From positions 11,738 to 75,737 of the forward strand of contig JAETUM010000004.1 in the NCBI GenBank assembly GCA_021768625.1: a DNA stretch of 64,000 nt, in the 5' to 3' direction. Position 1 is the stretch's first letter. Each line of letters opens with the position of its first letter. Shown piece by piece: positions 30,182 to 41,776 of this stretch. The notes beneath the pieces were generated by a model, which was given only the letters and a program-made list of their open reading frames with translations, was not told where the DNA came from and ran no database searches. Origin of the DNA: Candidatus Stoquefichus sp. (GTDB lineage: Bacteria > Bacillota_I > Bacilli_A > Erysipelotrichales > Coprobacillaceae). Made by a program: the position numbers and the translations under genes.

Positions 30182-30196
30182 AATTAAATTTTTAAA

Positions 30197-30212
30197 ATGG
30201 CAAACTTGCCAT
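30197..30212. repeat. element palindrome copy (ATGGCAAACTTGCCAT)
   Basis: Perfect palindrome with AAAA/TTTTTT flanks, ending 30 nt upstream of the micro-ORF ATG at 30243. Confidence 0.9.
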
Positions 30213-30242
30213 TTTTTGTTTTTTTAGAAAGGAGACGGGAAT

Positions 30243-30292
30243 ATGAAACAATGGAGCAGGAGTGTTTTTTTATGACACCTCTTTGAGGTGTC
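30243..30292 (+). promoter_or_regulatory. leader L1: 10-codon micro-ORF whose TGA stop opens a hairpin GACACC-TCTTTGA-GGTGTC
   Basis: AAAGGAGA SD. ATG 30243, MKQWSRSVFL, TGA 30273-30275. Hairpin at 30274-30292. Same architecture as leader L2 at 38275-38330. Confidence 0.45.
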
Positions 30293-30342
30293 GATATAGA
30301 AAAGTGAAATAAGAATAGAAAATTGAAAGGGAGTAGAAAATA

Positions 30343-31527
30343 ATGAAAAGAATATTGAAAAAAATAAATGATATTGTATTAAGTTTAGAGATTATAGTGC
30401 TTATCGCAATTGTTATTTTAAATGTTTTTCTATGGTTCATAAATATGGAACATTATGTTGTGTTGAGTGGCAGCATGGAGCCTGAAATTCATGTAGGAGC
30501 AATGGTCTATGTTGATAAAAATATTTCTATTGAAGAAATCGAAACTGGAGATATCATTGCATTTCAAACCAATTCAGCATTAGTAACGCATAGAGTTGTT
30601 GAAAAAGATGATAAAACTAAAACTTTCATGACAAAAGGAGATGCAAATGAAGTTAATGACTTTGCTCCAGTAGATTATGATATGTATGTAGGAAAGACAG
30701 TATTTTCTATCCCATATTTAGGATATTTAATGAGCTATATTAATACTACAAGAGGAAAGATTATTATAGTTACAATAGTTTTGGCTATGTTTCTTTCTCA
30801 TTATCTATTAGATGATAATGAGGAAAATGAAGAAAATGAAAAAATGAAAAATAAAAAAACAGAGGAGAAAAGAAAAATGGAAAAGAAAAATTTAAAAAAA
30901 GGAATTGCTAGTTTATTATTATTAGGATGCGTTGCTGTTGGAGGAATTTCAGCTTATTTGACAGATATCGAAAATGCGAATAATGAATTTACAGTTGGTA
31001 AAATTAATATTGAATTAAAAGAAGATAACTGGAATCCTGAAGAAGGAAAAGATATCACACCAAATAAAGAGATCGCAAAAGATCCAACAGTTACAAACAT
31101 TGGAAAAAATGGAGCATATGTATTTGTGGAAGTAGAAGTTCCATATGCAAATATCGTTGTTGCAAATGATGATGGAACAAAGAAAGCAGCTGCTGATACT
31201 GAATTATTTAGCTATACAGTAAATAGTGGTTGGGTTGAATTAGGAACAGGAACAAAAGATACTGAAAAAGGTATTATTACGCATGTATATGCATATGCAA
31301 CAGATTTAAATACATTAACTGCTCTTTCTAAAGAAGCAACTACACCTTCAGTATTTGATAGTGTAAAAGTAGCTAACTTTGTAGAAAATCAAGGATTAGA
31401 AGAAACAGAAACAAGTATCAATGTCATTGCTAAAGCGATCCAAACAACTGATATTAACGGAGGAAAAACAGACGCAGCATCTGTATATGAAGTATTAAAT
31501 AATCAAGTTCCTACAAATGTAAAATAG
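30343..31527 (+). CDS. SipW-type signal peptidase I fused in frame to a TasA/camelysin-like SipW-substrate domain
   Basis: Residues 1-157: TM, SGSMEP (catalytic Ser), THRV (His), TKGDAN and a second TM, i.e. archaeal/SipW-type S26B peptidase. Residues 179-394 begin at internal ATG 30877 (AGAGGAG SD 9 nt upstream): MEKKNLKKGIASLLLLGCVAVGGISAYLTDIENANNEFTVG, a SipW-cognate signal. No stop codon separates the two parts. Confidence 0.7.
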   Translation: MKRILKKINDIVLSLEIIVLIAIVILNVFLWFINMEHYVVLSGSMEPEIHVGAMVYVDKNISIEEIETGDIIAFQTNSALVTHRVVEKDDKTKTFMTKGDANEVNDFAPVDYDMYVGKTVFSIPYLGYLMSYINTTRGKIIIVTIVLAMFLSHYLLDDNEENEENEKMKNKKTEEKRKMEKKNLKKGIASLLLLGCVAVGGISAYLTDIENANNEFTVGKINIELKEDNWNPEEGKDITPNKEIAKDPTVTNIGKNGAYVFVEVEVPYANIVVANDDGTKKAAADTELFSYTVNSGWVELGTGTKDTEKGIITHVYAYATDLNTLTALSKEATTPSVFDSVKVANFVENQGLEETETSINVIAKAIQTTDINGGKTDAASVYEVLNNQVPTNVK

Positions 31528-31546
31528 TTTTATAATTTTTTTATTG

Positions 31547-31584
31547 AGGTGTTTTCAAAAAGCTAAAAATGAAAACACCTTTTT
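31547..31584 (+). terminator. intrinsic terminator
   Basis: 10-bp stem AGGTGTTTTC / GAAAACACCT, 14-nt loop, then TTTT. Confidence 0.7.
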
Positions 31585-31611: not shown

Positions 31612-32208
31612 ATGAAAACGAAAATAATGAAATATAAGATATGTTATATTTTAATTTTAATTGTTATCATGTTTTTTATATCTGGAATATTAGCAAATAT
31701 TACAGATATGTTAAGTGTGGTTAATAATCTTGCTGTAGATACGGTTGATATAGAATTAACTCAAAAGATGATAAGAAATAACAACCTGGTTGATTTTGAA
31801 AATAATGACGTTGTTTTACCTGGACAGAGTATTTCTTTTATTCCTAATATTTCTAATGCTGGAGTAGATTGTTATGTTCGAGTTAAACTGGAAACTGATG
31901 TATTATCTTATGATGATTTTCAAAGTTTCAATGAAAAATGGAAATATAATCCTTTAGATGATTATTTTTATTATACAGAAGTATTAAATGAAGAAAAAAC
32001 AATTGAAGTTTTTCAATCATTTACGATTCCTGATAGCTGGAGTAATGAAATGGCAGATGAAAGTTTTATTGTGAATATGACAGCCGAAGCAATTCAGTCT
32101 AGAAATTTCTATCCTAACTTTGATTCCAATGATCCGTGGAATGGCGAAAAGGCAGAAAAGACAGTTCGATCTAGGCTTGATAGAAAGCTGGTGAAGTCAG
32201 ATGTTTAA
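31612..32208 (+). CDS. TasA/camelysin-like protein with SipW-type signal
   Basis: N-terminal TM followed by ANITDMLSVVNNLAVDTVDIEL, then PGQSISFIPNISNAGVDCYVRVKL, typical of the TasA/CalY fold family. Confidence 0.6.
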   Translation: MKTKIMKYKICYILILIVIMFFISGILANITDMLSVVNNLAVDTVDIELTQKMIRNNNLVDFENNDVVLPGQSISFIPNISNAGVDCYVRVKLETDVLSYDDFQSFNEKWKYNPLDDYFYYTEVLNEEKTIEVFQSFTIPDSWSNEMADESFIVNMTAEAIQSRNFYPNFDSNDPWNGEKAEKTVRSRLDRKLVKSDV

Positions 32209-32902
32209 GAAATTAATTCTAACATTGTTTATTTCTGTTGCAACATTAATGAGTTCTACATTTGCATATGAAAATATGAATGTCGAATATATAGGAGATA
32301 CAGAAAAATTATTTAAAACAAGTGATGATTTCTTTGTTAATATTCCTACATTGTTACCAGGGGATACATATGAAGATAAAGCGGTTTTATTTAACAACTC
32401 AGATTTTAATATCAATCTTTATTTTAAAACAGAGCCTTTAGAAAAAGAAAAATATGAATTAGAAGAAGATTATAAACTTCTTGAGAAAATCAAATTATCT
32501 ATTTCAGTTAAAAAAGGCAAAGAAATAGTTAATGTTTATGATGGCTTTTTAGCTTCAAAGAATTTTGTGGATTTCAAAAAAATTGGATCTTACATTCCAA
32601 AAGAAAAAGCAGATTTCATTTTTAGATTGGAAGTTCCTACAGAATTAAAAAATGAATTTGATATGACTCGTACAAAAGTCAAATGGATTTTTGGAGTAGA
32701 ACCTGAAGAAATAGAAAAAGAAGTTTTAGGAGATGATTTTGAAAATCAATCGAATGTCAATATAGAAAAACAAACAATTCATTCATATATCAAAACTGGT
32801 GATAATATGGCCCCAGTATTATATGGAATGTTAGGAGCATGTGCTATATTGCTGATTCTTATTTTTAGAAAGGGAAAAGAAAATGATAAAAAAGATATTT
32901 AA
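32201..32902 (+). CDS. secreted protein with C-terminal sorting-signal-like anchor (IKTGDN + TM + RKGKEN)
   Basis: Signal peptide. LLPGDTYEDKAVLFNNSD beta-sandwich-like motif. C-terminal KTGD motif, hydrophobic helix and basic tail. Overlaps the upstream gene by 8 nt. Confidence 0.55.
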   Translation: MFKKLILTLFISVATLMSSTFAYENMNVEYIGDTEKLFKTSDDFFVNIPTLLPGDTYEDKAVLFNNSDFNINLYFKTEPLEKEKYELEEDYKLLEKIKLSISVKKGKEIVNVYDGFLASKNFVDFKKIGSYIPKEKADFIFRLEVPTELKNEFDMTRTKVKWIFGVEPEEIEKEVLGDDFENQSNVNIEKQTIHSYIKTGDNMAPVLYGMLGACAILLILIFRKGKENDKKDI

Positions 32903-33419
32903 CATACAGAAAGTCAAATACTTCGTTATTCTTTTTATTGTGATGTCAGCCTTTCTAACAATATTTGCATATTTAGCTGATATTGATAATGCTGGTAATG
33001 AATTTACAATTGCAAAACAAACAGTTGAAATCGTAGAGGAATTTGATCCACCAGAAAAATTGATACCTGGTATTTCTTTCACTAAAAAAGTAAATGTTAA
33101 AAATACAGGAACTATTCCCTGTTATGTTCGAGTCTTTGCACAAATCAATGACAGTACGATAGGGGATTATGTAGATATTGATTATGACATGATCAATTGG
33201 ACTATAAAAGATGATGGATATTACTATTACAATAAAATCCTTAATTCTAATGAATTGACAAGTCCATTATTTACAACTGTTAGTATTTCTAATGATATAG
33301 AACAGGATGCATTGAATGATTTTGATATTATTGTTTATACTGAATCTGTACAGGAAGAGGGATACTCAAATATAGATGATGCTTTTAGACTTGATAGAAA
33401 GGAGAATCGCAATGAATAA
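32883..33419 (+). CDS. TasA/camelysin-like protein with SipW-type signal
   Basis: FAYLADIDNAGNEFTIAKQTVEIVEEF...PGISFTKKVNVKNTGTIPCYVRVF matches the SipW-cognate signal and TasA core pattern. Confidence 0.65.
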   Translation: MIKKIFNIQKVKYFVILFIVMSAFLTIFAYLADIDNAGNEFTIAKQTVEIVEEFDPPEKLIPGISFTKKVNVKNTGTIPCYVRVFAQINDSTIGDYVDIDYDMINWTIKDDGYYYYNKILNSNELTSPLFTTVSISNDIEQDALNDFDIIVYTESVQEEGYSNIDDAFRLDRKENRNE

Positions 33420-36400
33420 GAAATTGAATAAGAAATTGAAAAGAATATTTCTGATGATGATGACTTTTTTAATAACTATCACGACATTTTATAATCATGA
33501 TGTTGTTAAAGCTGAAGATTCTTCTTTGAACGATTGGAGTATAAAGATCAATTGGGGAGATCCAAGTGAAAATATTCCAGATAACTGGAAACCTGTATAT
33601 AGTGATGAGGATACAGTTTCCGTTAAAACTCAATTGACGATTCAATATAAAGGTGATGGAACAAAAACATATGAACCAGGAGATGTCAAGATCTCAATGA
33701 ATGATATTGCTGATATATTTGATACTGAACTTGCTAAACAAGGCTGGGGATTTTGTCCATCTATAAATTCAATAATTGAAATAACTTCATCGGCTGATAA
33801 AAAAGGAGTGGCTGGTGTTGAAGATTGGGAATATACAACAACTGGAAGTTTTGATAATCATCAGATTCTTCTAAGTAATAAAAGCGAAATTTCTGGTTCG
33901 TTCACTTCAACTGTACAGTTCGTATTTAAGTTTAATAAATATTCATCAGTAAAAGCAATTAGGCTTTTTAAACCTCGTTATTCTAAGGATATTCAAGCAA
34001 CACTGACAGTTGATAATTCGATAAGAGAGTCGAATATAATCAACTACACATTTGATGGAGTACAGGATCAATACGAGATTAAATGGAATACAATGAAAAA
34101 TATAACTGAAGCAAGTGAGATTTTATCTAAGATACCACAAGATAAATGGAAAGATTATTATTTTTATAATACAAGTGTGCAAGGAGTCATCACAAGAAAT
34201 ACATTCAGTTTGAAAAATGGTTGGAGACTGGAATTTGATTATCCAGCTGATTTTATTTTAGGTGATCTTTCAAGTAACAACACAAATAAATCACATTCGA
34301 TTTTTACTAAAGGAGTTGGGGAAGATAAACTTAATTCTAATAACTTCTTTGGAACAGCTTTTCATTATTATCAGTATGGGACGTATTCCTATTTAAATAG
34401 ATATATAGCGATTCCTAAAGAATATTTAGACAAGAATAATGGTTATATTGATTTAAATGTAAAGATGTATGGAACATATACTAATGAAGATACTGAAAAA
34501 TTGATAAGCAGTGATACGACAAGGATCAATTTGAATGATGCTAAAGTTTCTTTTGAAGGAGATTTATATGCAACAGAAAAAGATAGTTTATCTATGAATG
34601 AAAACATTCCCTATATTAATATTATGAGGAAAAATTTCGATAAGGATAAAAATGAGTTGGATTATGAAAATGAGCAAGTCTTCATGTTAAAAGCAACAGC
34701 TGTTTACTATGGAAAAAAATATAATCTGATATTGGGTGATGATTTGCAGTATTTTGTATATGATGATAATTCTTTTCGAAGGCTTGAAAATAATGAAAGA
34801 TTAGTCAATAAAGTTTCTTTAAATAAAATCGGAAGCAAAAAAACATATGCTTATGAAATTTATGGAAAGAAGTTAAATGGTGATGGAACTTACGAAAAAA
34901 TAAAAGAGGGTTCTATAACAGGAAATACAAAGATAACTTTCGATGACTGGTATTATGATATCAAGGTAAAATATCTCAATTTGGAGGAGACGATTAATAA
35001 TGGAAGGCTTGTATATCTTTATTACAAAATTTTAGATAATGAAAGTCTTGATGACAATAAAAGACCAGCTAAATTATACAACTCTTCTTACCTTCAGATT
35101 GAAATGGCAGATGAAAATGGAGAGAATAATTATATTCATCTTGATTATGATGTTAATACTAATATAGAATCATTAAAAAGTGATCTAGAGGAATATTCTT
35201 TATCCAATTATGGAGAAACTGTGCTAAGAGGAATAAATATTTTAAATATTAGGTCGAAATATGTCATGTTAAGTTCAAATAAGAATAGTTGTACATTAGA
35301 CTATAGTGATGATGAATTGTATAAAAAGGATGTCATAAGCAGTGATTATATTCAAAATTATTCGTTAGGAAATACAGAATTAAAAGAATTTAAAATCAAA
35401 TTAACTGTACCTGATTATTTGGAAATTAATCATAATGATGTGAAATTATATATCAATGATCAAGCTTATAGAATCGAAGAGTTAGAAGCAAAGGGAATTA
35501 TTGTTTCATATGAAAAAAATAATTTAGATGGACAATATGAAATGATATACTCTATAGATGCAAATAAATCTCCAATCAAGCTCAAAGAGAATAACATCAA
35601 TAATGATTTTAATATTCAATATGATGTTCATTTATCATATGATGATTATGTCATGTATGGATTGCAGGGTAAAACAAGTTCGATTCAACATGAGCTATAT
35701 GATGTTGTATTAGTTGATGGAGACAATCAAGAGAAGATTGATTGTTTTAATTCATTTACAAGAGTGAATGATAGTATTGTTATTCCTAATGTTCCATTAG
35801 GTTCATTTCAAGGTATTCAAAAAGAAGTGAAAACAGATAGCAATAGCTATACAAAGCAACAGGCTGTAACAAATGCTGGAGAAGATTATTCATATAAGTT
35901 AAAAATTTCTTCAGGACAGACAAGAATGGCTAATATCATCTTATATGATAATTTAGAGAATAATGAGCTAGATACCTGGAAAGGTGAATTTAAGGGTATA
36001 GATATGTCTGTTTTAGAAGGTTTAAATGTGGATGTGTCGAAGTTCAAGATTTACTATTCAATAAATAGAAATCAATCTAGAGACTTAGAAACTAATGGTT
36101 GGATACTTTCTTCTGATTACAGTGGAGATATATCCGAAGTTAAGTCTATTGCAATTGATATGCAGGATTATGTGTTAACTCCTAATCAGATAGGATATAT
36201 AGAAGTGTTAATGAAAGCTCCTGAAGATAATGTTAAATTAGGATCAATAACGAAGAATCAATATTTTTCTTCTTATAAAGAATATGATGAGAAAGATGAA
36301 TCTCAGTCAAATCCTCTAAAAGAAACGATAGATCTTCCTTCAAATATTACATCTTTGTCATTTGGAAAGATCATTCCTACAAAAGAGCTGACAATAACAA

Positions 36401-36813
36401 AAACTATTTATAAGGAAGATATTAATTTTGCTTATGGTAATCCAGTTGCAATCTTTAAAATTGATGGTACAGATATAGAAGGTAATTCTATTATTAAATA
36501 TGTGAGTGCTGAGTTTACAGAGGAATTTGTTAATAATGAAACAGGAATCGAAGAAAATGGATTAACAAGAATTGACATGAGTCAAAAGGTCGCATTACCT
36601 TTGGGAACTTATACTGTTACAGAAGTCGATAATCTAAGATATAAATTAATAGAAATTGACACTATAAATGCAGAATCTAAGACTACAAATAGTGTCACAT
36701 TTGACTTAGAAAAAGATGATGATGAAAGTGTAAGATTTACAAATAGATGTACAAATTACAATGACTTATCAGATAGTGATATTGTCATAAATGAAATTAA
36801 GAAAGGAAATTAA
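33412..36813 (+). CDS. large (1133 aa) secreted protein, putative fibre tip/adhesin with C-terminal Cna-B-like beta-sandwich
   Basis: Start moved to ATG 33412 (GGAG SD): MNKKLNKKLKRIFLMMMTFLITITTFYNHDVVKA signal peptide. C-terminal ...LTITKTIYKED...LPLGTYTVTEVDNLRYKL resembles Cna-B/SpaA-type domains. No anchor motif. Confidence 0.6.
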   Translation: MNKKLNKKLKRIFLMMMTFLITITTFYNHDVVKAEDSSLNDWSIKINWGDPSENIPDNWKPVYSDEDTVSVKTQLTIQYKGDGTKTYEPGDVKISMNDIADIFDTELAKQGWGFCPSINSIIEITSSADKKGVAGVEDWEYTTTGSFDNHQILLSNKSEISGSFTSTVQFVFKFNKYSSVKAIRLFKPRYSKDIQATLTVDNSIRESNIINYTFDGVQDQYEIKWNTMKNITEASEILSKIPQDKWKDYYFYNTSVQGVITRNTFSLKNGWRLEFDYPADFILGDLSSNNTNKSHSIFTKGVGEDKLNSNNFFGTAFHYYQYGTYSYLNRYIAIPKEYLDKNNGYIDLNVKMYGTYTNEDTEKLISSDTTRINLNDAKVSFEGDLYATEKDSLSMNENIPYINIMRKNFDKDKNELDYENEQVFMLKATAVYYGKKYNLILGDDLQYFVYDDNSFRRLENNERLVNKVSLNKIGSKKTYAYEIYGKKLNGDGTYEKIKEGSITGNTKITFDDWYYDIKVKYLNLEETINNGRLVYLYYKILDNESLDDNKRPAKLYNSSYLQIEMADENGENNYIHLDYDVNTNIESLKSDLEEYSLSNYGETVLRGINILNIRSKYVMLSSNKNSCTLDYSDDELYKKDVISSDYIQNYSLGNTELKEFKIKLTVPDYLEINHNDVKLYINDQAYRIEELEAKGIIVSYEKNNLDGQYEMIYSIDANKSPIKLKENNINNDFNIQYDVHLSYDDYVMYGLQGKTSSIQHELYDVVLVDGDNQEKIDCFNSFTRVNDSIVIPNVPLGSFQGIQKEVKTDSNSYTKQQAVTNAGEDYSYKLKISSGQTRMANIILYDNLENNELDTWKGEFKGIDMSVLEGLNVDVSKFKIYYSINRNQSRDLETNGWILSSDYSGDISEVKSIAIDMQDYVLTPNQIGYIEVLMKAPEDNVKLGSITKNQYFSSYKEYDEKDESQSNPLKETIDLPSNITSLSFGKIIPTKELTITKTIYKEDINFAYGNPVAIFKIDGTDIEGNSIIKYVSAEFTEEFVNNETGIEENGLTRIDMSQKVALPLGTYTVTEVDNLRYKLIEIDTINAESKTTNSVTFDLEKDDDESVRFTNRCTNYNDLSDSDIVINEIKKGN

Positions 36814-38362: not shown

Positions 38363-38389
38363 GTAGGTCATTTGACCTACTTTTCTTTT
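38363..38389 (+). terminator. terminator/attenuator hairpin in the adhesin leader
   Basis: Stem GTAGGTC / GACCTAC followed by TTTTCTTTT, located 45 nt upstream of the adhesin ATG. Confidence 0.55.
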
Positions 38390-38434
38390 ATGAAAATATA
38401 TAGTTTTAAAATCAATATGAAAGGATTTGAGAAA

Positions 38435-41400
38435 ATGAAATATTTTGAAAAATTAAAAGGGATTTTAGATAAATCATGGAAAATATTATTGATTTTTACT
38501 ATGGTCATATCAATGTTAGCTCTAAAAGGAAATAACAGTATTAAAGACGTTATAGCTTATAGTGGCTATCCTAAAAGTATAAATGTCAAGTATCATGGAA
38601 AATTGACTTATAGTGGAAGCACAGTAGGAGATTTTACTGTGAATGGCAAGCAAGCATTTTGCATGGCTCATGAACTGCCTACTCCTGGCAATGATACAAA
38701 AATGACAGCGGAGATATATGATAATGTAACTATTAGAAAAGTTCTTTATTATGGCTGGAGTGGTCCAAAACAATGGAGTGGATTTAAAAGCAGGGCACAA
38801 GGTGTTGTTGTAACTTCACTAACATTATCACATTATTATTATGGTACAAAGGAACGTACAATTCAAAAAGATTTTATGGATTACATAAAAAACAAAACTG
38901 TACCAAATTATAAAGTTAAATTTTCCACATCATCGGTCAATGCCTATATGAGTGGAACTATTCAAAGAACACCTAGTGTTACATTAAACAGTGGAATGAC
39001 TGATAATAGTGTGAGTGTTACATTACAGAATGATGTAACATATGTAGATGAAACACATAATAAAAGGCAAAAGGGTGGAACAGTCAAGATTTATGGAAAG
39101 ACAAAATTTCACTTAGAAGCACCGTTAACTAAGAACTTAGGGACATGGTCTACTGGTAATAAATCACAGGGAGCAATTTTTGCACCTGTTCTCAGTCAAA
39201 CAAAAATAGGCAAAGTTCAGCCCATTGGTTATCCAGATTGGGCAGTTGATCCAATGGATATTACTTCATTAAAAGTCAAATGGGTTGATTTAGGAAACTT
39301 GAAACTTGGTAAACAGGAAAAAGAAACTGGTAAAATGGTTGCTGATACTTATTTTAAAGTTTCTTATAATAGTGATATGTCCAACTACAAAGGAATATGG
39401 AAAACAGGAAAAGATGGATATGTAACTATCAATAACCTTAAAGCAGGAGCAGTCTATGTTCAAGAGATAAAAGTTCCAGATCATTTGATATTGGATAAGA
39501 CAATTCGTAAGGTTACAATTGAAAAAGGAAAAACTGTATCTTTTACAAACAAAAATAATCTTAAACCAACCAGTTTAAAGCTTGGAAAACAAGAACTAGA
39601 AACTGGTAAGATGGTTGCAGGAGCATTATTTAAAGTTTCTAAAAATTCAGATATGTCAAATTATAGAGGTATCTATAAAACAGGAAGTGATGGTTATGTC
39701 ACTTTATCTAACCTCTTGCCAGGTACATATTATATACAGGAGGTTGGTGTTCCAGCACATTTAATCTTGGATAAGACTATTCATAAAGTAACTGTAACTT
39801 ATGATAAACCGGGAGTATTTATAAAGAAAAACAACTTAAGAAAAGGTAATCTGAAACTTGGAAAACAAGACGAAAAGAATAGAATGGTTCCTAATACTTT
39901 ATTCAAAGTTTCACAAAAATCAGATATGTCAAATTATAGAGGTATCTATAAAACAGGAAGTGATGGTTATGTGACTTTATCTAATCTTTTGCCAGGTACT
40001 TATTATGTTCAAGAGGTTGGTGTTCCAAATCATTTGATCTTAGATAAGACTATTCATAAAGTTGTTGTTAATTATGATAAGACAACAACATTTATGAAAA
40101 CAAATAGGGTTAAACCTGCAAGATTAGATATTATTAAAACTGGTGAGGTTTTGACAGATTATAAAGATGGAAATTTCGTTTTTGAAGAAAAAGGACTTCC
40201 AGATATGGAAGTACAGATTTTTGCAGAAGAAAAGATTTTTGATTATATGACTGGTAAGACTTATCAAAAAGGAGACCTTGTCAAAACTGTGAGAACAGGA
40301 AAAGACGGAAAGATTAGTGTTAATCTTCCATTAGGTAAATATCGTATACATGAGTATAAAGCTCCTTTAGGCTTTGTTTTATCAAGTGTTGATCAATATG
40401 TTACTTTATCAAGTAGCAGTCCAACACAAACTTTAGTGACTGCTAGTAAGAGCTTCTATAATGAAAGACAAAAGGTTAAAATCAATGCTATTAAAGTTGA
40501 TGGAATGACACAAGAAAGACTTCAAAATGCAGTTATCGGATTGTATGCAAATGAAGACATTTATAATTATCAAGGAAAGAAATTAGTTGATAAAGGAACA
40601 CTTCTTTTATCAAAAGAGACGGATAAAAATGGAAATATTGTCTTTGATATAGATTTACCATTAGTTGATGTATATCTTGAAGAAATACAACCACCAGAAG
40701 GCTATGTAAAAATTGATAAAAAATATTATATAGATATTAAGTCAACAGACCAAACAACACAGATATACAACTTTTCAAGAACAATCGTTAATAACCCTAA
40801 ACCAGTTGAAATATCTAAGAAAGCTATTACAGGTAGTGAAGAATTAGAAGGAGCAAAATTACAGATTATAGATGTTCTAACAAAAGAGGTTGTTGAAGAA
40901 TGGATTTCTACTGATAAACCACACATGACAAATGAGTTGCTGGTAGGAAGAAGATATATATTAAGGGAAATTTTATCTCCTGATGGATATACAATAGCAA
41001 ATGATATAGAGTTTACAGTTAATGGAGATAAAAGTGTTCAAAAAGTTACAATGATTGATGAATTAACAAAGGTTGATATTTCAAAACAAGATGCAACAAA
41101 TGGAAAAGAACTTCCAGATGCTAAATTAGAAATTATAGATCCAATAACAAATAAAGTTGTTAGAGAACATATTTCCACAAATGAGCCTTGGATTATCGAA
41201 GGTTTGATTTGGAATAAAGAATATATATTAAGAGAAACCCTTGCTCCTGATGGGTATGAAACAGCAAATGAAATTCGTTTTACGGTTGGCAAAGATAACA
41301 AAGTTGTAATGAAAGATGAGCCTCTAGAACCTGAAGAATTAGGAGAAGAACCTGTATTTACAAATATTCAAGTCAATAAAATTGACAGTCAGACAAAAGA

Positions 41401-41776
41401 ATTAATTAAATCAAAAGATTTTGAATTTACTTTATATTCTGATTCTGAATGTACTCAAGTCTTAAAAATTGTACATGCTGATAAAAAGAACGGTACAGCA
41501 ACATTTAAGGCATTAAAATTTGGAACTTACTACATCAAAGAGACTAATGCTCCAAAAGGATACAGTTTAAGTGATGAAGTGAAAAAAGTTGTTATCAATG
41601 AAAAATTGAATGGTGTTGGAGGTACTTATTCATTTGAGTATGCCAATACATTGTTACCTACAAAGTTTGCTAAAACAAGTGATAATACACAAATGATTCC
41701 GTATATGATTATTACTGGAGTATCTGGGTTATTATCAGTTTATTTCTATCGTTCAAGAAGAAAGGAAGAAATCTAA
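38435..41776 (+). CDS. Cna-B/SpaA-repeat surface adhesin with C-terminal anchor
   Basis: Start moved to ATG 38435 (MKYFEKLK..., signal-anchor helix); ATG 38417 is an alternative, and the track TTG start at 38372 lies inside the leader terminator. At least 8 prealbumin-like Cna-B/SpaA repeats (…LPGTYYIQEVGVPAHLILD…, …APDGYETANEIRFTV…). C-terminal AKTSDN + TM + RSRRKEEI. Confidence 0.8.
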   Translation: MKYFEKLKGILDKSWKILLIFTMVISMLALKGNNSIKDVIAYSGYPKSINVKYHGKLTYSGSTVGDFTVNGKQAFCMAHELPTPGNDTKMTAEIYDNVTIRKVLYYGWSGPKQWSGFKSRAQGVVVTSLTLSHYYYGTKERTIQKDFMDYIKNKTVPNYKVKFSTSSVNAYMSGTIQRTPSVTLNSGMTDNSVSVTLQNDVTYVDETHNKRQKGGTVKIYGKTKFHLEAPLTKNLGTWSTGNKSQGAIFAPVLSQTKIGKVQPIGYPDWAVDPMDITSLKVKWVDLGNLKLGKQEKETGKMVADTYFKVSYNSDMSNYKGIWKTGKDGYVTINNLKAGAVYVQEIKVPDHLILDKTIRKVTIEKGKTVSFTNKNNLKPTSLKLGKQELETGKMVAGALFKVSKNSDMSNYRGIYKTGSDGYVTLSNLLPGTYYIQEVGVPAHLILDKTIHKVTVTYDKPGVFIKKNNLRKGNLKLGKQDEKNRMVPNTLFKVSQKSDMSNYRGIYKTGSDGYVTLSNLLPGTYYVQEVGVPNHLILDKTIHKVVVNYDKTTTFMKTNRVKPARLDIIKTGEVLTDYKDGNFVFEEKGLPDMEVQIFAEEKIFDYMTGKTYQKGDLVKTVRTGKDGKISVNLPLGKYRIHEYKAPLGFVLSSVDQYVTLSSSSPTQTLVTASKSFYNERQKVKINAIKVDGMTQERLQNAVIGLYANEDIYNYQGKKLVDKGTLLLSKETDKNGNIVFDIDLPLVDVYLEEIQPPEGYVKIDKKYYIDIKSTDQTTQIYNFSRTIVNNPKPVEISKKAITGSEELEGAKLQIIDVLTKEVVEEWISTDKPHMTNELLVGRRYILREILSPDGYTIANDIEFTVNGDKSVQKVTMIDELTKVDISKQDATNGKELPDAKLEIIDPITNKVVREHISTNEPWIIEGLIWNKEYILRETLAPDGYETANEIRFTVGKDNKVVMKDEPLEPEELGEEPVFTNIQVNKIDSQTKELIKSKDFEFTLYSDSECTQVLKIVHADKKNGTATFKALKFGTYYIKETNAPKGYSLSDEVKKVVINEKLNGVGGTYSFEYANTLLPTKFAKTSDNTQMIPYMIITGVSGLLSVYFYRSRRKEEI
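39299..40123 (+). repeat. three tandem ~275-bp coding repeats (copies 2 and 3 nearly identical over long stretches)
   Basis: Repeats begin LKLGKQE(K/L)ETGKMV... Copies 2 and 3 share ...SDMSNYRGIYKTGSDGYVTLSNLLPGTYY(I/V)QEVGVP.HLILDKTIHKV... with near-identical DNA. Confidence 0.85.

What the first reader, a model, noticed from the sequence alone, without database searches (positions are those of the whole stretch)
30343..31527. SipW-type signal peptidase fused in frame to its own TasA-like substrate
One 394-codon ORF holds a complete SipW-like peptidase (TM, SGSMEP, THRV, TKGDAN, TM). It continues without a stop through an acidic/basic linker into a TasA/camelysin-like protein that carries its own SipW-cognate signal (…GGISAYLTDIENANNEFTVG). 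An internal ATG at 30877 has a good SD (AGAGGAG, 9-nt spacing), so both a fusion and a stand-alone substrate could be made. The predicted topology is coherent: the peptidase C-terminal TM returns the chain to the cytoplasm, so the substrate signal would insert N-in/C-out and could be cleaved in cis or in trans. In the B. subtilis tapA-sipW-tasA paradigm the two are separate genes.
Basis: partly seen in the sequence, partly recalled or inferred. Interest (0 to 1): 0.7.

Follow-up and report, generated by a model that had tools for sequence, protein, structure and literature searches.

The report
Signal peptidase fused to its substrate
A bacterial mobile element carries one gene that joins a SipW-type signal peptidase to the fibre protein it normally cuts; the fusion is real, but comparison with relatives suggests a rare, recent and probably harmless accident at an overlapping gene junction.

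Summary
Window 30343..31527 (+) is one 394-codon ORF. It contains a complete archaeal/ER-type (SipW-like) signal peptidase I, a charged linker, and a TasA/BsaA/camelysin-family pre-protein with its own SipW-type signal peptide. An internal SD and ATG sit at 30861-30879.

It is not a sequencing artefact. The identical fused ORF occurs in several independent assemblies and in two genomic contexts.

It is not a conserved design either.
- The closest relatives (86% nt and 67% aa identity) have two overlapping genes. The window differs by a net 2-nt indel in an A-rich tract.
- Two other lineages fused independently, one by a TAA>GAA stop loss and one by a 1-nt deletion.
- None of 54 species-representative sipW/tasA-like pairs is fused, although 40 overlap or lie within 30 nt.
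- All 120 closest peptidase homologues are stand-alone.

Best reading: a recurrent, young, tolerated fusion. The peptidase removes the internal signal peptide, so the two modules separate after translation. The retained internal start still yields stand-alone substrate. Cleavage and use of the internal start are inferred, not shown.

The gene heads a fibre/adhesin operon on a conjugative element. I rate it a new variant of a known kind, of moderate interest.

The parts
30194..30215 (+). Terminator-like hairpin plus T-run ending the upstream 212-aa gene. The fused gene therefore starts a new transcription unit.
30327..30333 (+). Shine-Dalgarno-like AAGGGAG, 9 nt upstream of the ATG at 30343
   Evidence: read from the sequence
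30343..31527 (+). Fused ORF of 394 codons plus stop: SipW-like signal peptidase, linker, TasA/BsaA-like pre-protein
30343..30810 (+). Peptidase module, aa 1-156. TM1 is about aa 13-33. It carries catalytic Ser44 (30472-30474), His83 (30589-30591), Asp100 (30640-30642) and Asp106 (30658-30660). TM2 is aa 136-156 (30748-30810).
   Evidence: TIGR02228 at 101 bits; SEC11A/C alignment; hydropathy; AF2 and Foldseek SEC11C E=3e-5
30811..30900 (+). Charged, A-rich linker (aa 157-186) with A5-A7 runs. It is predicted disordered and then helical. This is the site of the net 2-nt difference from the split relative that creates the fusion.
30861..30867 (+). Internal Shine-Dalgarno AGAGGAG, invariant between the fused allele and the split relative
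30877..30954 (+). Internal ATG (Met179) and SipW-type signal peptide (aa 179-204): n-region KKNLKK, h-region 187-203, then ...GGISA. Cleavage after Ala204 (ISA|YLTD) is inferred by analogy with TasA.
   Evidence: TIGR04088 at 24.5 bits against 19; same start codon as L004; TasA cleavage context from PMC10269814 abstract. The cleavage position is inferred.
30955..31524 (+). Predicted mature TasA/BsaA/camelysin-family domain (aa 205-394). The N-terminal stretch 205-219 is disordered and is a candidate donor strand. Residues 223-367 are beta-rich.
   Evidence: PF12389; 50-60% identity to many stand-alone 220-240 aa homologues; AF2
31546..31581 (+). 12-bp hairpin followed by U5, directly after the fused gene. 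It is a candidate intrinsic terminator or attenuator ahead of the rest of the operon.
   Evidence: dG -17.8 kcal/mol, z -4.7
31612..32208 (+). 198-aa secreted protein with a weak BsaA-family match and a variant SipW-type signal (..GILANITD..)
32201..32902 (+). 233-aa secreted protein. Its C-terminus carries YIKTGDN, a hydrophobic stretch and a basic tail, resembling a sortase sorting signal.
32883..33419 (+). 178-aa BsaA-family protein with a SipW-type signal (..TIFAYLADIDNAGNEFT..)
   Evidence: TIGR04090 at 63.3 bits against a cutoff of 60
33376..36813 (+). 1145-aa secreted protein with no Pfam hit. The large protein at the same position in related operons has TED_2 and SpaA domains.

Best explanation
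This is a genuine but evolutionarily young gene fusion at the junction of a tightly coupled sipW / tasA-like gene pair. The pair heads a SipW-dependent fibre/adhesin operon on a conjugative element.

In the ancestor, the peptidase gene ended a few bases inside the start of the fibre-subunit gene, in another frame. A net 2-nt change in the A-rich junction put the two in frame.

Two products are expected:
1. From the ATG at 30343, a 3-TM fusion. TM1 runs N-in, the catalytic domain sits outside, TM2 returns the chain to the cytoplasm, the basic linker stays inside, and the substrate's signal peptide inserts N-in/C-out.
2. From the retained internal SD/ATG at 30877, the ordinary pre-protein.

Either way, the SipW active site, acting in cis or from another molecule, cuts after about Ala204 (ISA|YLTD) and releases the same mature subunit. 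The peptidase keeps a spent signal peptide as a third helix and still serves the other SipW-type substrates of the operon.

The fusion therefore resolves itself. That is why it is tolerated and why it recurs, but it is not selected as an architecture.

Shown: the ORF, the domains, the motifs, the topology, the independence of the assemblies, the split ancestry, and the rarity and recurrence.
Inferred: cleavage, its position, use of the internal start, and neutrality.
For: 1. Domains and catalytic motifs are complete.
2. The identical fused allele occurs in independent assemblies and in two contexts. L006/L007 have a different 5' 170 nt and a different upstream gene but the same linker.
3. The relative L004/L005 (86% nt identity) is split. 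Its sipW (183 aa) overlaps the 219-aa tasA-like gene by 17 nt in another frame, with the same SD and ATG. The window differs by 2 nt upstream of the ATG.
4. The outgroup L016 (67% aa identity) and all 120 closest peptidase homologues (148-199 aa, with two of about 280 aa) are unfused.
5. Other lineages fused independently by other routes. Cluster 3 lost one G (L008 against L009-L011). Cluster 2 has TAA>GAA ('...GRN*IMMKNRK' against '...WRNEFMMKNRK'). P0134 and P0250 are also fused.
6. Fusion is rare. None of 54 pairs in GTDB species representatives is fused, although 24 overlap and 16 lie within 30 nt, 10 of them in frame. One of 30 metagenome loci is fused, and that one is a low-coverage contig with a further frameshift.
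7. This is the only S26 peptidase in the window, while at least two more operon proteins carry SipW-type signals. The peptidase must therefore still work in trans.
8. All fused lineages keep the order TM2, basic linker, h-region, A(Y/F)(L/F)(T/S)D.
Against: - No expression or protein data exist. Cleavage, its site and internal initiation are all inferred.
- The window-lineage fused alleles differ by only one substitution outside the recombined 5' end. Neutrality cannot be separated from mild harm or benefit.
- In cluster 2, linker variants stay in frame. These include a 6-aa deletion (P0127) and an apparently compensated double frameshift (P0126). This could hint at selection to keep the fusion.
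- A signal peptide left tethered to the enzyme could inhibit it.
- The rarity of fusions, despite many junctions being one mutation away, may mean they are mildly deleterious rather than neutral.
Confidence: 0.62

Rival explanations
1. The fusion is adaptive. Tethering SipW to the fibre subunit would guarantee co-localised, co-translational cis-processing. Alternatively, it would give a membrane-anchored base subunit that holds the peptidase at the growing end of the fibre, acting as an assembly platform.
For: - The topology is fully compatible with cis cleavage.
- The fused allele persists in several samples and two contexts.
- Cluster-2 linker variants remain in frame, including a compensated frameshift.
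- Published work on C. perfringens BsaA proposes that the newest subunit is held in the membrane by its signal peptide and that SipW cuts only after donor-strand exchange (PMC11580942). This would make a tethered peptidase meaningful.
Against: - None of 54 species-representative loci is fused, and none of the 120 nearest peptidases.
- Every fused lineage has near-identical split relatives, so no fusion is old.
- A catalytic enzyme made 1:1 with a structural subunit is wasteful, and the internal start is retained.
Confidence: 0.15
2. The fusion is a mildly deleterious or inactivating lesion and the operon is decaying. The extra helix or the tethered signal peptide would cripple the peptidase, or the fusion would clog Sec insertion.
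For: - Fusions are rare although 40 of 54 junctions overlap or lie within 30 nt.
- The alleles are young.
- P0250 is a singleton.
- L102 carries additional frameshifts.
Against: - All catalytic residues and both modules are intact, with high model confidence.
- All four downstream operon genes are intact ORFs.
- The allele is spread over at least 5 assemblies and has recombined into a second context.
- The cluster-2 fusion is the majority form in its 90% cluster.
Confidence: 0.13
3. It is a sequencing or assembly artefact: a miscounted A-run merges two genes.
For: The junction is A-rich, with A6, A5 and A7 runs. The split relative differs by a 2-nt indel there.
Against: - The identical junction appears in contigs from different studies and assemblers: Logan, SPAdes NODE_, MEGAHIT k141_ and an NCBI genome.
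- It also appears in a variant whose 5' end and upstream gene differ.
- The split relative differs by many substitutions as well (86% identity), so it is a different allele, not a corrected read-out.
Confidence: 0.03
4. Recoding. Transcriptional slippage or ribosomal frameshifting on the A-runs would regularly yield a stand-alone peptidase from the fused allele, or a fusion from split alleles. The DNA-level state would then matter little.
For: There are A7 runs at 30853 and 30894. Stops follow quickly in both alternative frames. All three well-documented fusion junctions are A-rich.
Against: - A7 is short for efficient slippage.
- No conserved slippery heptamer with a downstream structure was seen.
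- The cluster-2 fusion arose by a stop-codon substitution, not in a run.
- The idea was not tested further.
Confidence: 0.05

Closest known systems
Clostridium perfringens sipW-bsaA-bsaB-bsaC operon (Obana 2020, PMC7395162; Kivimaki 2025, PMC11580942)
   Same: - A SipW-type peptidase gene comes first and is immediately followed by the major TasA-like fibre subunit.
- Further BsaA/BsaB-like paralogues follow, one with an LPXTG-type anchor in most strains.
- A large adhesin-type protein follows.
- The 178-aa protein in the window passes the BsaA-family model.
   Different: - There, sipW and bsaA are separate genes. Here they are one ORF.
- The fused subunit is below the BsaA-family cutoff (25.9 against 60).
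- The locus sits on a conjugative element.
- The large downstream protein is not a VWA protein.
Bacillus subtilis tapA-sipW-tasA (and B. cereus sipW-tasA-calY)
   Same: A dedicated ER/archaeal-type signal peptidase is encoded next to TasA-family substrates that carry the characteristic signal peptide (...GG.xA|(A/Y)(F/L)xD) (PMC10269814; PMC9245690).
   Different: - The genes are separate.
- Neither module is an orthologue. The SipW equivalog model gives 90.6 bits against 190, and the TasA equivalog model gives 23.8 against 450.
- The structural match to the TasA fibre 8aur is weak (E 0.02).
Eukaryotic signal peptidase complex catalytic subunits SEC11A/SEC11C (PDB 7P2P, 7P2Q)
   Same: These are the best sequence and fold matches for residues 11-136, with the SGSMEP, HRV and KGDxN...D motifs aligned.
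   Different: SEC11 has one TM, works in a four-subunit complex and is never fused to a substrate.
Self-resolving polyproteins (protease plus cargo in one chain, e.g. viral polyproteins)
   Same: It works like one if the inference holds. An enzyme translated in one chain with its substrate releases it by cutting at a cognate site.
   Different: - The two are not homologous.
- Here the cut is a membrane signal-peptide cleavage.
- The arrangement is not conserved, and an internal start makes the fusion dispensable.
SipW-like peptidase fused to a sortase (L092:7079-8377, Lachnospiraceae MAG)
   Same: This is another in-frame fusion of the peptidase's C-terminal TM region to the N-terminal membrane anchor of the next fibre-assembly protein.
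   Different: The partner is an enzyme (sortase), not a substrate. Its anchor need not be cleaved.

Membership tests
Archaeal/ER-type signal peptidase I (S26B; TIGR02228; SipW-like) | Profile score above the curated cutoff | tested here: met
   TIGR02228 scores 101.3 bits against 51.85. PF10502 scores 34.7 against 22.9.
Archaeal/ER-type signal peptidase I (S26B; TIGR02228; SipW-like) | Catalytic Ser, His and Asp in the SGSMEP, HRV and GDxN..D motifs (Ser-His type, not the Ser-Lys type of bacterial LepB) | tested here: met
   S44, H83, D100 and D106 are invariant in the fused homologues and align with the SEC11A/C motifs.
Archaeal/ER-type signal peptidase I (S26B; TIGR02228; SipW-like) | N-terminal membrane anchor and, as in SipW, a C-terminal TM | tested here: met
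   Hydropathy segments lie at 4-41 and 133-158. AF2 helices lie at 2-32 and 136-156.
Archaeal/ER-type signal peptidase I (S26B; TIGR02228; SipW-like) | S26 fold | tested here: met
   Foldseek gives 7p2q_A E=3e-5 and 7p2p_A E=1e-4, both with probability 1.00.
Bacillus SipW orthologue (NF046067 equivalog) | Score above the equivalog cutoff | tested here: not met
   90.6 bits against a cutoff of 190. The protein is SipW-like, not a SipW orthologue.
Archaeal/ER-type signal peptidase I (S26B; TIGR02228; SipW-like) | Cleaves TasA-type signal peptides | not testable with these tools
   This needs biochemistry or genetics.
TasA/camelysin/BsaA family (PF12389) with SipW-dependent signal (TIGR04088) | PF12389 above the gathering score | tested here: met
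   23.8 bits against 22.5, which is marginal. Most of the listed stand-alone homologues (mostly 46-60% identical) carry PF12389.
TasA/camelysin/BsaA family (PF12389) with SipW-dependent signal (TIGR04088) | SipW-cognate signal peptide motif | tested here: met
   TIGR04088 scores 24.5 against 19, over residues 188-221.
TasA/camelysin/BsaA family (PF12389) with SipW-dependent signal (TIGR04088) | Jelly-roll or Ig-like beta fold resembling TasA | tested here: inconclusive
   A confident beta-rich domain spans 223-367. The best matches are type II cohesins (E about 1e-3). The TasA fibre 8aur_A reaches only E 0.02 with probability 0.63.
TasA/camelysin/BsaA family (PF12389) with SipW-dependent signal (TIGR04088) | Encoded beside a sipW-type peptidase and paralogous subunits | tested here: met
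BsaA subfamily (TIGR04090) | Score above the subfamily cutoff | tested here: not met
   25.9 bits against 60 for the fused protein. The 178-aa neighbour does pass, at 63.3.
BsaA subfamily (TIGR04090) | N-E-K triad for the intermolecular isopeptide lock (PMC11580942) | not tested
   Invariant N214, E224/E233/E263 and K246 exist, but no alignment to BsaA and no multimer model was made.
TasA orthologue (NF046066 equivalog) | Score above the equivalog cutoff | tested here: not met
   23.8 bits against 450.

The most novel reading that the evidence does not exclude
The fusion protein is itself the functional unit. It would be a membrane-embedded SipW covalently tethered to the newest fibre subunit, holding the base of a donor-strand-exchange fibre at the peptidase. 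Each cis-cleavage would then be coupled to subunit addition, giving a minimal, sortase-independent fibre assembly platform. It would be encoded by a conjugative element and might be used for mating-pair adhesion.
Probability: 0.1. Interest if true: 0.7.

Novelty: new variant of a known kind. Interest (0 to 1): 0.35.

Why it matters
- It is a natural enzyme-substrate fusion for a membrane signal peptidase. If the inferred cleavage occurs, it gives a ready-made construct for asking whether SipW-type peptidases can cut in cis. It also allows tests of how a tethered signal peptide affects turnover, and whether timing of cleavage controls assembly of TasA/BsaA fibres.
- It illustrates a general point for annotation. 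Tightly overlapping operon genes whose products are separated by proteolysis can fuse repeatedly without obvious cost. Such 'novel architectures' in databases should not be over-interpreted.
- It places a SipW-dependent fibre/adhesin operon on a conjugative element of gut Bacillota.

Tried and rejected
- **Artefact hypothesis.** Rejected after retrieving the junction from independent assemblies.
- **Conserved-architecture hypothesis.** Rejected after three checks: ORF-by-ORF analysis of 80 GTDB and 80 metagenome loci, a search with the peptidase half alone, and a profile search of 1.84 billion representatives. Only the best 150 hits of the profile search are visible, so more divergent fusions could be hidden.
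- **P0139 (333 aa).** It looked fused by length, but its N-terminus is unrelated to SipW.
- **L102.** This is the only fused metagenome locus. It is a 1.4x-coverage contig with an additional frameshift in the subunit, so it does not count as evidence.
- **Third homology search, with P0250.** It showed that P0250 is a singleton and gave no old fused clade.
- **Plasmid collection (tblastn).** There was no fused hit and no close relative.
- **Foldseek.** It did not give a convincing TasA match for the C-terminal domain.
- **Literature.** Searches for a natural SipW-TasA fusion found none. The library holds open-access papers only.
- **L084.** The long ORF preceding a peptidase was not pursued, because a stop-to-stop extension is not evidence of a fusion.
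- **Promoter scan.** Promoter-like sites were no more frequent than in shuffles, so no internal promoter can be claimed.

Full report
**1. Is it there?**

Yes. The ORF 30343..31527 (+) is 394 codons with an ATG start. The sequence shows no stop between the two halves.

The N-terminal 156 residues are a complete archaeal/ER-type signal peptidase I.
- TIGR02228 scores 101.3 bits against a cutoff of 51.85. Pfam Peptidase_S26 scores 34.7 against 22.9.
- phmmer against the PDB finds only SEC11C and SEC11A (E = 4e-9 and 1e-7). The motifs SGS44MEP, H83RV, KGD100AN and D106 are aligned.
- The AF2 model (mean pLDDT 86) matches SEC11C/A best (Foldseek E = 3e-5 and 1e-4).

The protein is SipW-like, not a SipW orthologue. 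The Bacillus equivalog model gives 90.6 bits against 190.

Residues 179-394 are a TasA/BsaA/camelysin-family pre-protein.
- The SipW-cognate signal model TIGR04088 scores 24.5 against 19, over residues 188-221. PF12389 scores 23.8 against 22.5.
- Over a hundred stand-alone proteins, mostly 216-270 aa, are mostly 46-60% identical to this half.
- The fold is a confident beta domain, but its match to the TasA fibre is weak (8aur, E 0.02).

Hydropathy and the model agree on three membrane helices, at about 13-33, 136-156 and 187-203. A charged, partly disordered linker lies between the second and third.

**2. Is it an artefact?**

No. The exact 394-aa protein is on record from NCBI, Logan and ENA. 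DNA retrieved from SRR13008622 (contig seen in 4 samples), SRR13008605 and ERZ25893051 is identical over the gene.

A 395-aa variant from ERZ27236832 and ERZ28573961 has the same linker. Its first 170 nt are diverged and a different gene lies upstream. The fused allele has therefore recombined into a second context.

**3. Where did it come from?**

A relative at 86% nt identity (L004/L005) has two genes. Its sipW (183 aa) ends 17 nt inside the 219-aa subunit gene, in another frame, with the same SD and the same ATG. The window has 2 extra nt in the A-rich tract upstream of that ATG, which brings the frames together.

The next outgroup is L016, an Erysipelotrichales MAG at 67% aa identity. It is also split with a 14-nt overlap. 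All 120 closest homologues of the peptidase half are 148-199 aa, apart from two of about 280 aa. Split is therefore ancestral and fused is derived.

Outside the recombined 5' end, the fused alleles differ by one substitution in about 1000 nt. The allele is young.

**4. Is it unique?**

No, but it is rare.
- Cluster 3 (P0033/P0133, 38% identical to the window protein) is fused by loss of a single G: GGTAAGAAAAATGAATAA becomes GGTAAAAAAATG. The split form in the same 90% cluster is more frequent.
- Cluster 2 (P0019 and four other fused members, on at least 8 contigs) is fused by a TAA>GAA stop loss. Compare Blautia/Ruminococcus genomes, which read '...IAGRN*IMMKNRK', with '...IAWRNEFMMKNRK'.
- A profile of the three fused proteins was searched against 1.84 billion representatives. 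It gave 16,455 hits at E<1e-10. Among the 150 best, only two further fused forms appeared: P0134 (356 aa, 6-residue linker) and P0250 (417 aa). P0250 is a singleton.

I analysed the ORFs of the loci returned from GTDB species representatives.
- None of 54 sipW/tasA-like pairs is fused.
- 24 overlap, 13 of them by the 4-nt ATGA.
- 16 are separated by 30 nt or less, 10 of those in the same frame and so one stop-loss away from fusion.
- 14 are further apart.

Among metagenome loci, 1 of 30 is fused. It is a 1.4x-coverage contig with another frameshift.

In short, at least three independent mutational routes lead to the same architecture. Each has near-identical split relatives, and no old fused clade was found.

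**5. How it most likely works**

The gene follows a terminator (30194-30215). It is followed by a strong hairpin plus U-run (31546-31581, dG -17.8, z -4.7). It therefore heads the operon and may be over-represented in transcripts.

Two products are expected from the sequence: the 394-aa fusion from 30343, and the 216-aa pre-protein from 30877. The topology of the fusion is coherent. TM2 returns the chain to the cytoplasm. The lysine-rich segment KKNLKK obeys the positive-inside rule. The h-region then inserts N-in/C-out and presents ...GGISA|YLTD at the outer face, where the SipW active site sits.

The cleavage position is inferred by analogy with TasA, whose SipW site has an aromatic residue at P2' (PMC10269814 abstract), and from the TIGR04088 motif. 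Cleavage would release the same mature subunit from either precursor. It would leave the peptidase with a third helix.

This is the only S26 peptidase in the window. The 178-aa BsaA-family protein and the 198-aa protein downstream carry similar signals. The enzyme must therefore also work in trans.

All fused lineages keep the same order of elements. A fusion that its own enzyme resolves costs little. That explains both its recurrence and its lack of fixation. None of the cleavage steps has been shown.

**6. Rivals**

- An adaptive tether or assembly platform is attractive. The published BsaA model has the newest subunit held by its signal peptide until SipW cuts (PMC11580942). The in-frame linker variants in cluster 2 also fit. 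The rarity and youth of all fusions argue against it.
- A mildly deleterious lesion cannot be excluded. It would also explain the rarity.
- Recoding on the A-runs is untested and unlikely.
- The artefact reading is rejected.

**7. Context**

Window positions of about 20-62 kb encode a conjugative element. The genes include ParA/ParB, a DUF3991-Toprim primase, ArdC, a DprA-like protein, a methylase, a VirB4/TraG-like ATPase, a lysozyme-NlpC/P60 hydrolase and a coupling protein. It also carries a TED_2 plus 8x SpaA adhesin (38372-41776).

Related sipW/tasA-like operons end in TED_2/SpaA proteins. The overall gene order resembles the C. perfringens bsa operon of most strains.

**8. Novelty and verdict**

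No description of a natural SipW-substrate fusion was found in the searchable literature. This is a new variant of a known system, not a new kind of system.

Its significance is lower than proposed. Interest is 0.35.

Noticed in passing
L092:7079-8377 (Lachnospiraceae MAG MGBC100069, CAJTKU010000004.1): One ORF joins a SipW-like S26 peptidase, through a K/E-rich linker and a TM helix, to a sortase domain (TLSTC motif). It lies 2.5 kb downstream of an ordinary split sipW/tasA-like pair. It is a second kind of fusion at the C-terminal TM of these peptidases.
   Followed up: partly
window 20000-62000: The fibre operon sits inside a conjugative element (ICE or plasmid-like). Genes include ParA/ParB, SSB, PemK toxin, DUF3991-Toprim, ArdC-metallopeptidase, DprA-like, an N6/N4 methylase, a VirB4/TraG-like ATPase, lysozyme plus NlpC/P60, and a T4 coupling protein. 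A SipW-dependent fibre as conjugative-element cargo or mating adhesin was not explored.
   Followed up: partly
window 32201-32902 and 38372-41776: Two proteins end in a sorting-signal-like motif. The 233-aa operon protein ends in YIKTGDN and the 1134-aa TED_2/SpaA adhesin ends in FAKTSDN. Each motif is followed by a hydrophobic stretch and a basic tail. No sortase gene was found in the window by tblastn or a TLxTC scan, so a host sortase with a xKT(G/S)DN specificity would be needed.
   Followed up: partly
window 31546-31581: A 12-bp stem with a 12-nt loop, followed by U5, lies right after the fused gene (dG -17.8 kcal/mol, z -4.7). The simple terminator scan missed it because of the long loop. 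It may attenuate transcription into the minor-subunit genes.
   Followed up: partly
window 30274-30292: A perfect 8-bp inverted repeat, GACACCTC-TTT-GAGGTGTC, lies in the leader about 50 nt upstream of the fused gene's start. No T-run follows it. It could be an operator or an RNA element.
   Followed up: no
L016-L095 (GTDB species representatives): In 13 of 54 sipW/tasA-like pairs, the stop of sipW and the start of the subunit gene form a 4-nt ATGA overlap. In 10 more, the two genes are in the same frame and 30 nt or less apart. Translational coupling seems to be the rule in this gene pair.
   Followed up: yes
P0126 (cluster 2 member, ENA contig of 36 kb): The peptidase tail reads SLIWHIPQKRIKK instead of SDLAYTPKKNKK and then returns to frame. 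This looks like a compensated double frameshift that keeps the fusion in frame. It could be a single complex mutation or a hint of selection.
   Followed up: no
P0402-P0406, P0411, P0416 (hits): Signal-peptidase homologues of about 400 aa carry C-terminal He_PIG, fn3 or Pur_ac_phosph_N-type domains. Other long architectures therefore exist in this peptidase family.
   Followed up: no
L018 and L020 record titles: Near-identical sipW/tasA-like loci are filed under Prevotella sp. CAG:279, an Eggerthellaceae bin, Ruminococcus sp. and Blautia schinkii. This suggests mis-binning or horizontal spread of this operon.
   Followed up: no
The search with the first 167 residues of the window protein did not list the window protein's own cluster (P0001). 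The word-index search is therefore not exhaustive, even for identical sequences.
   Followed up: no
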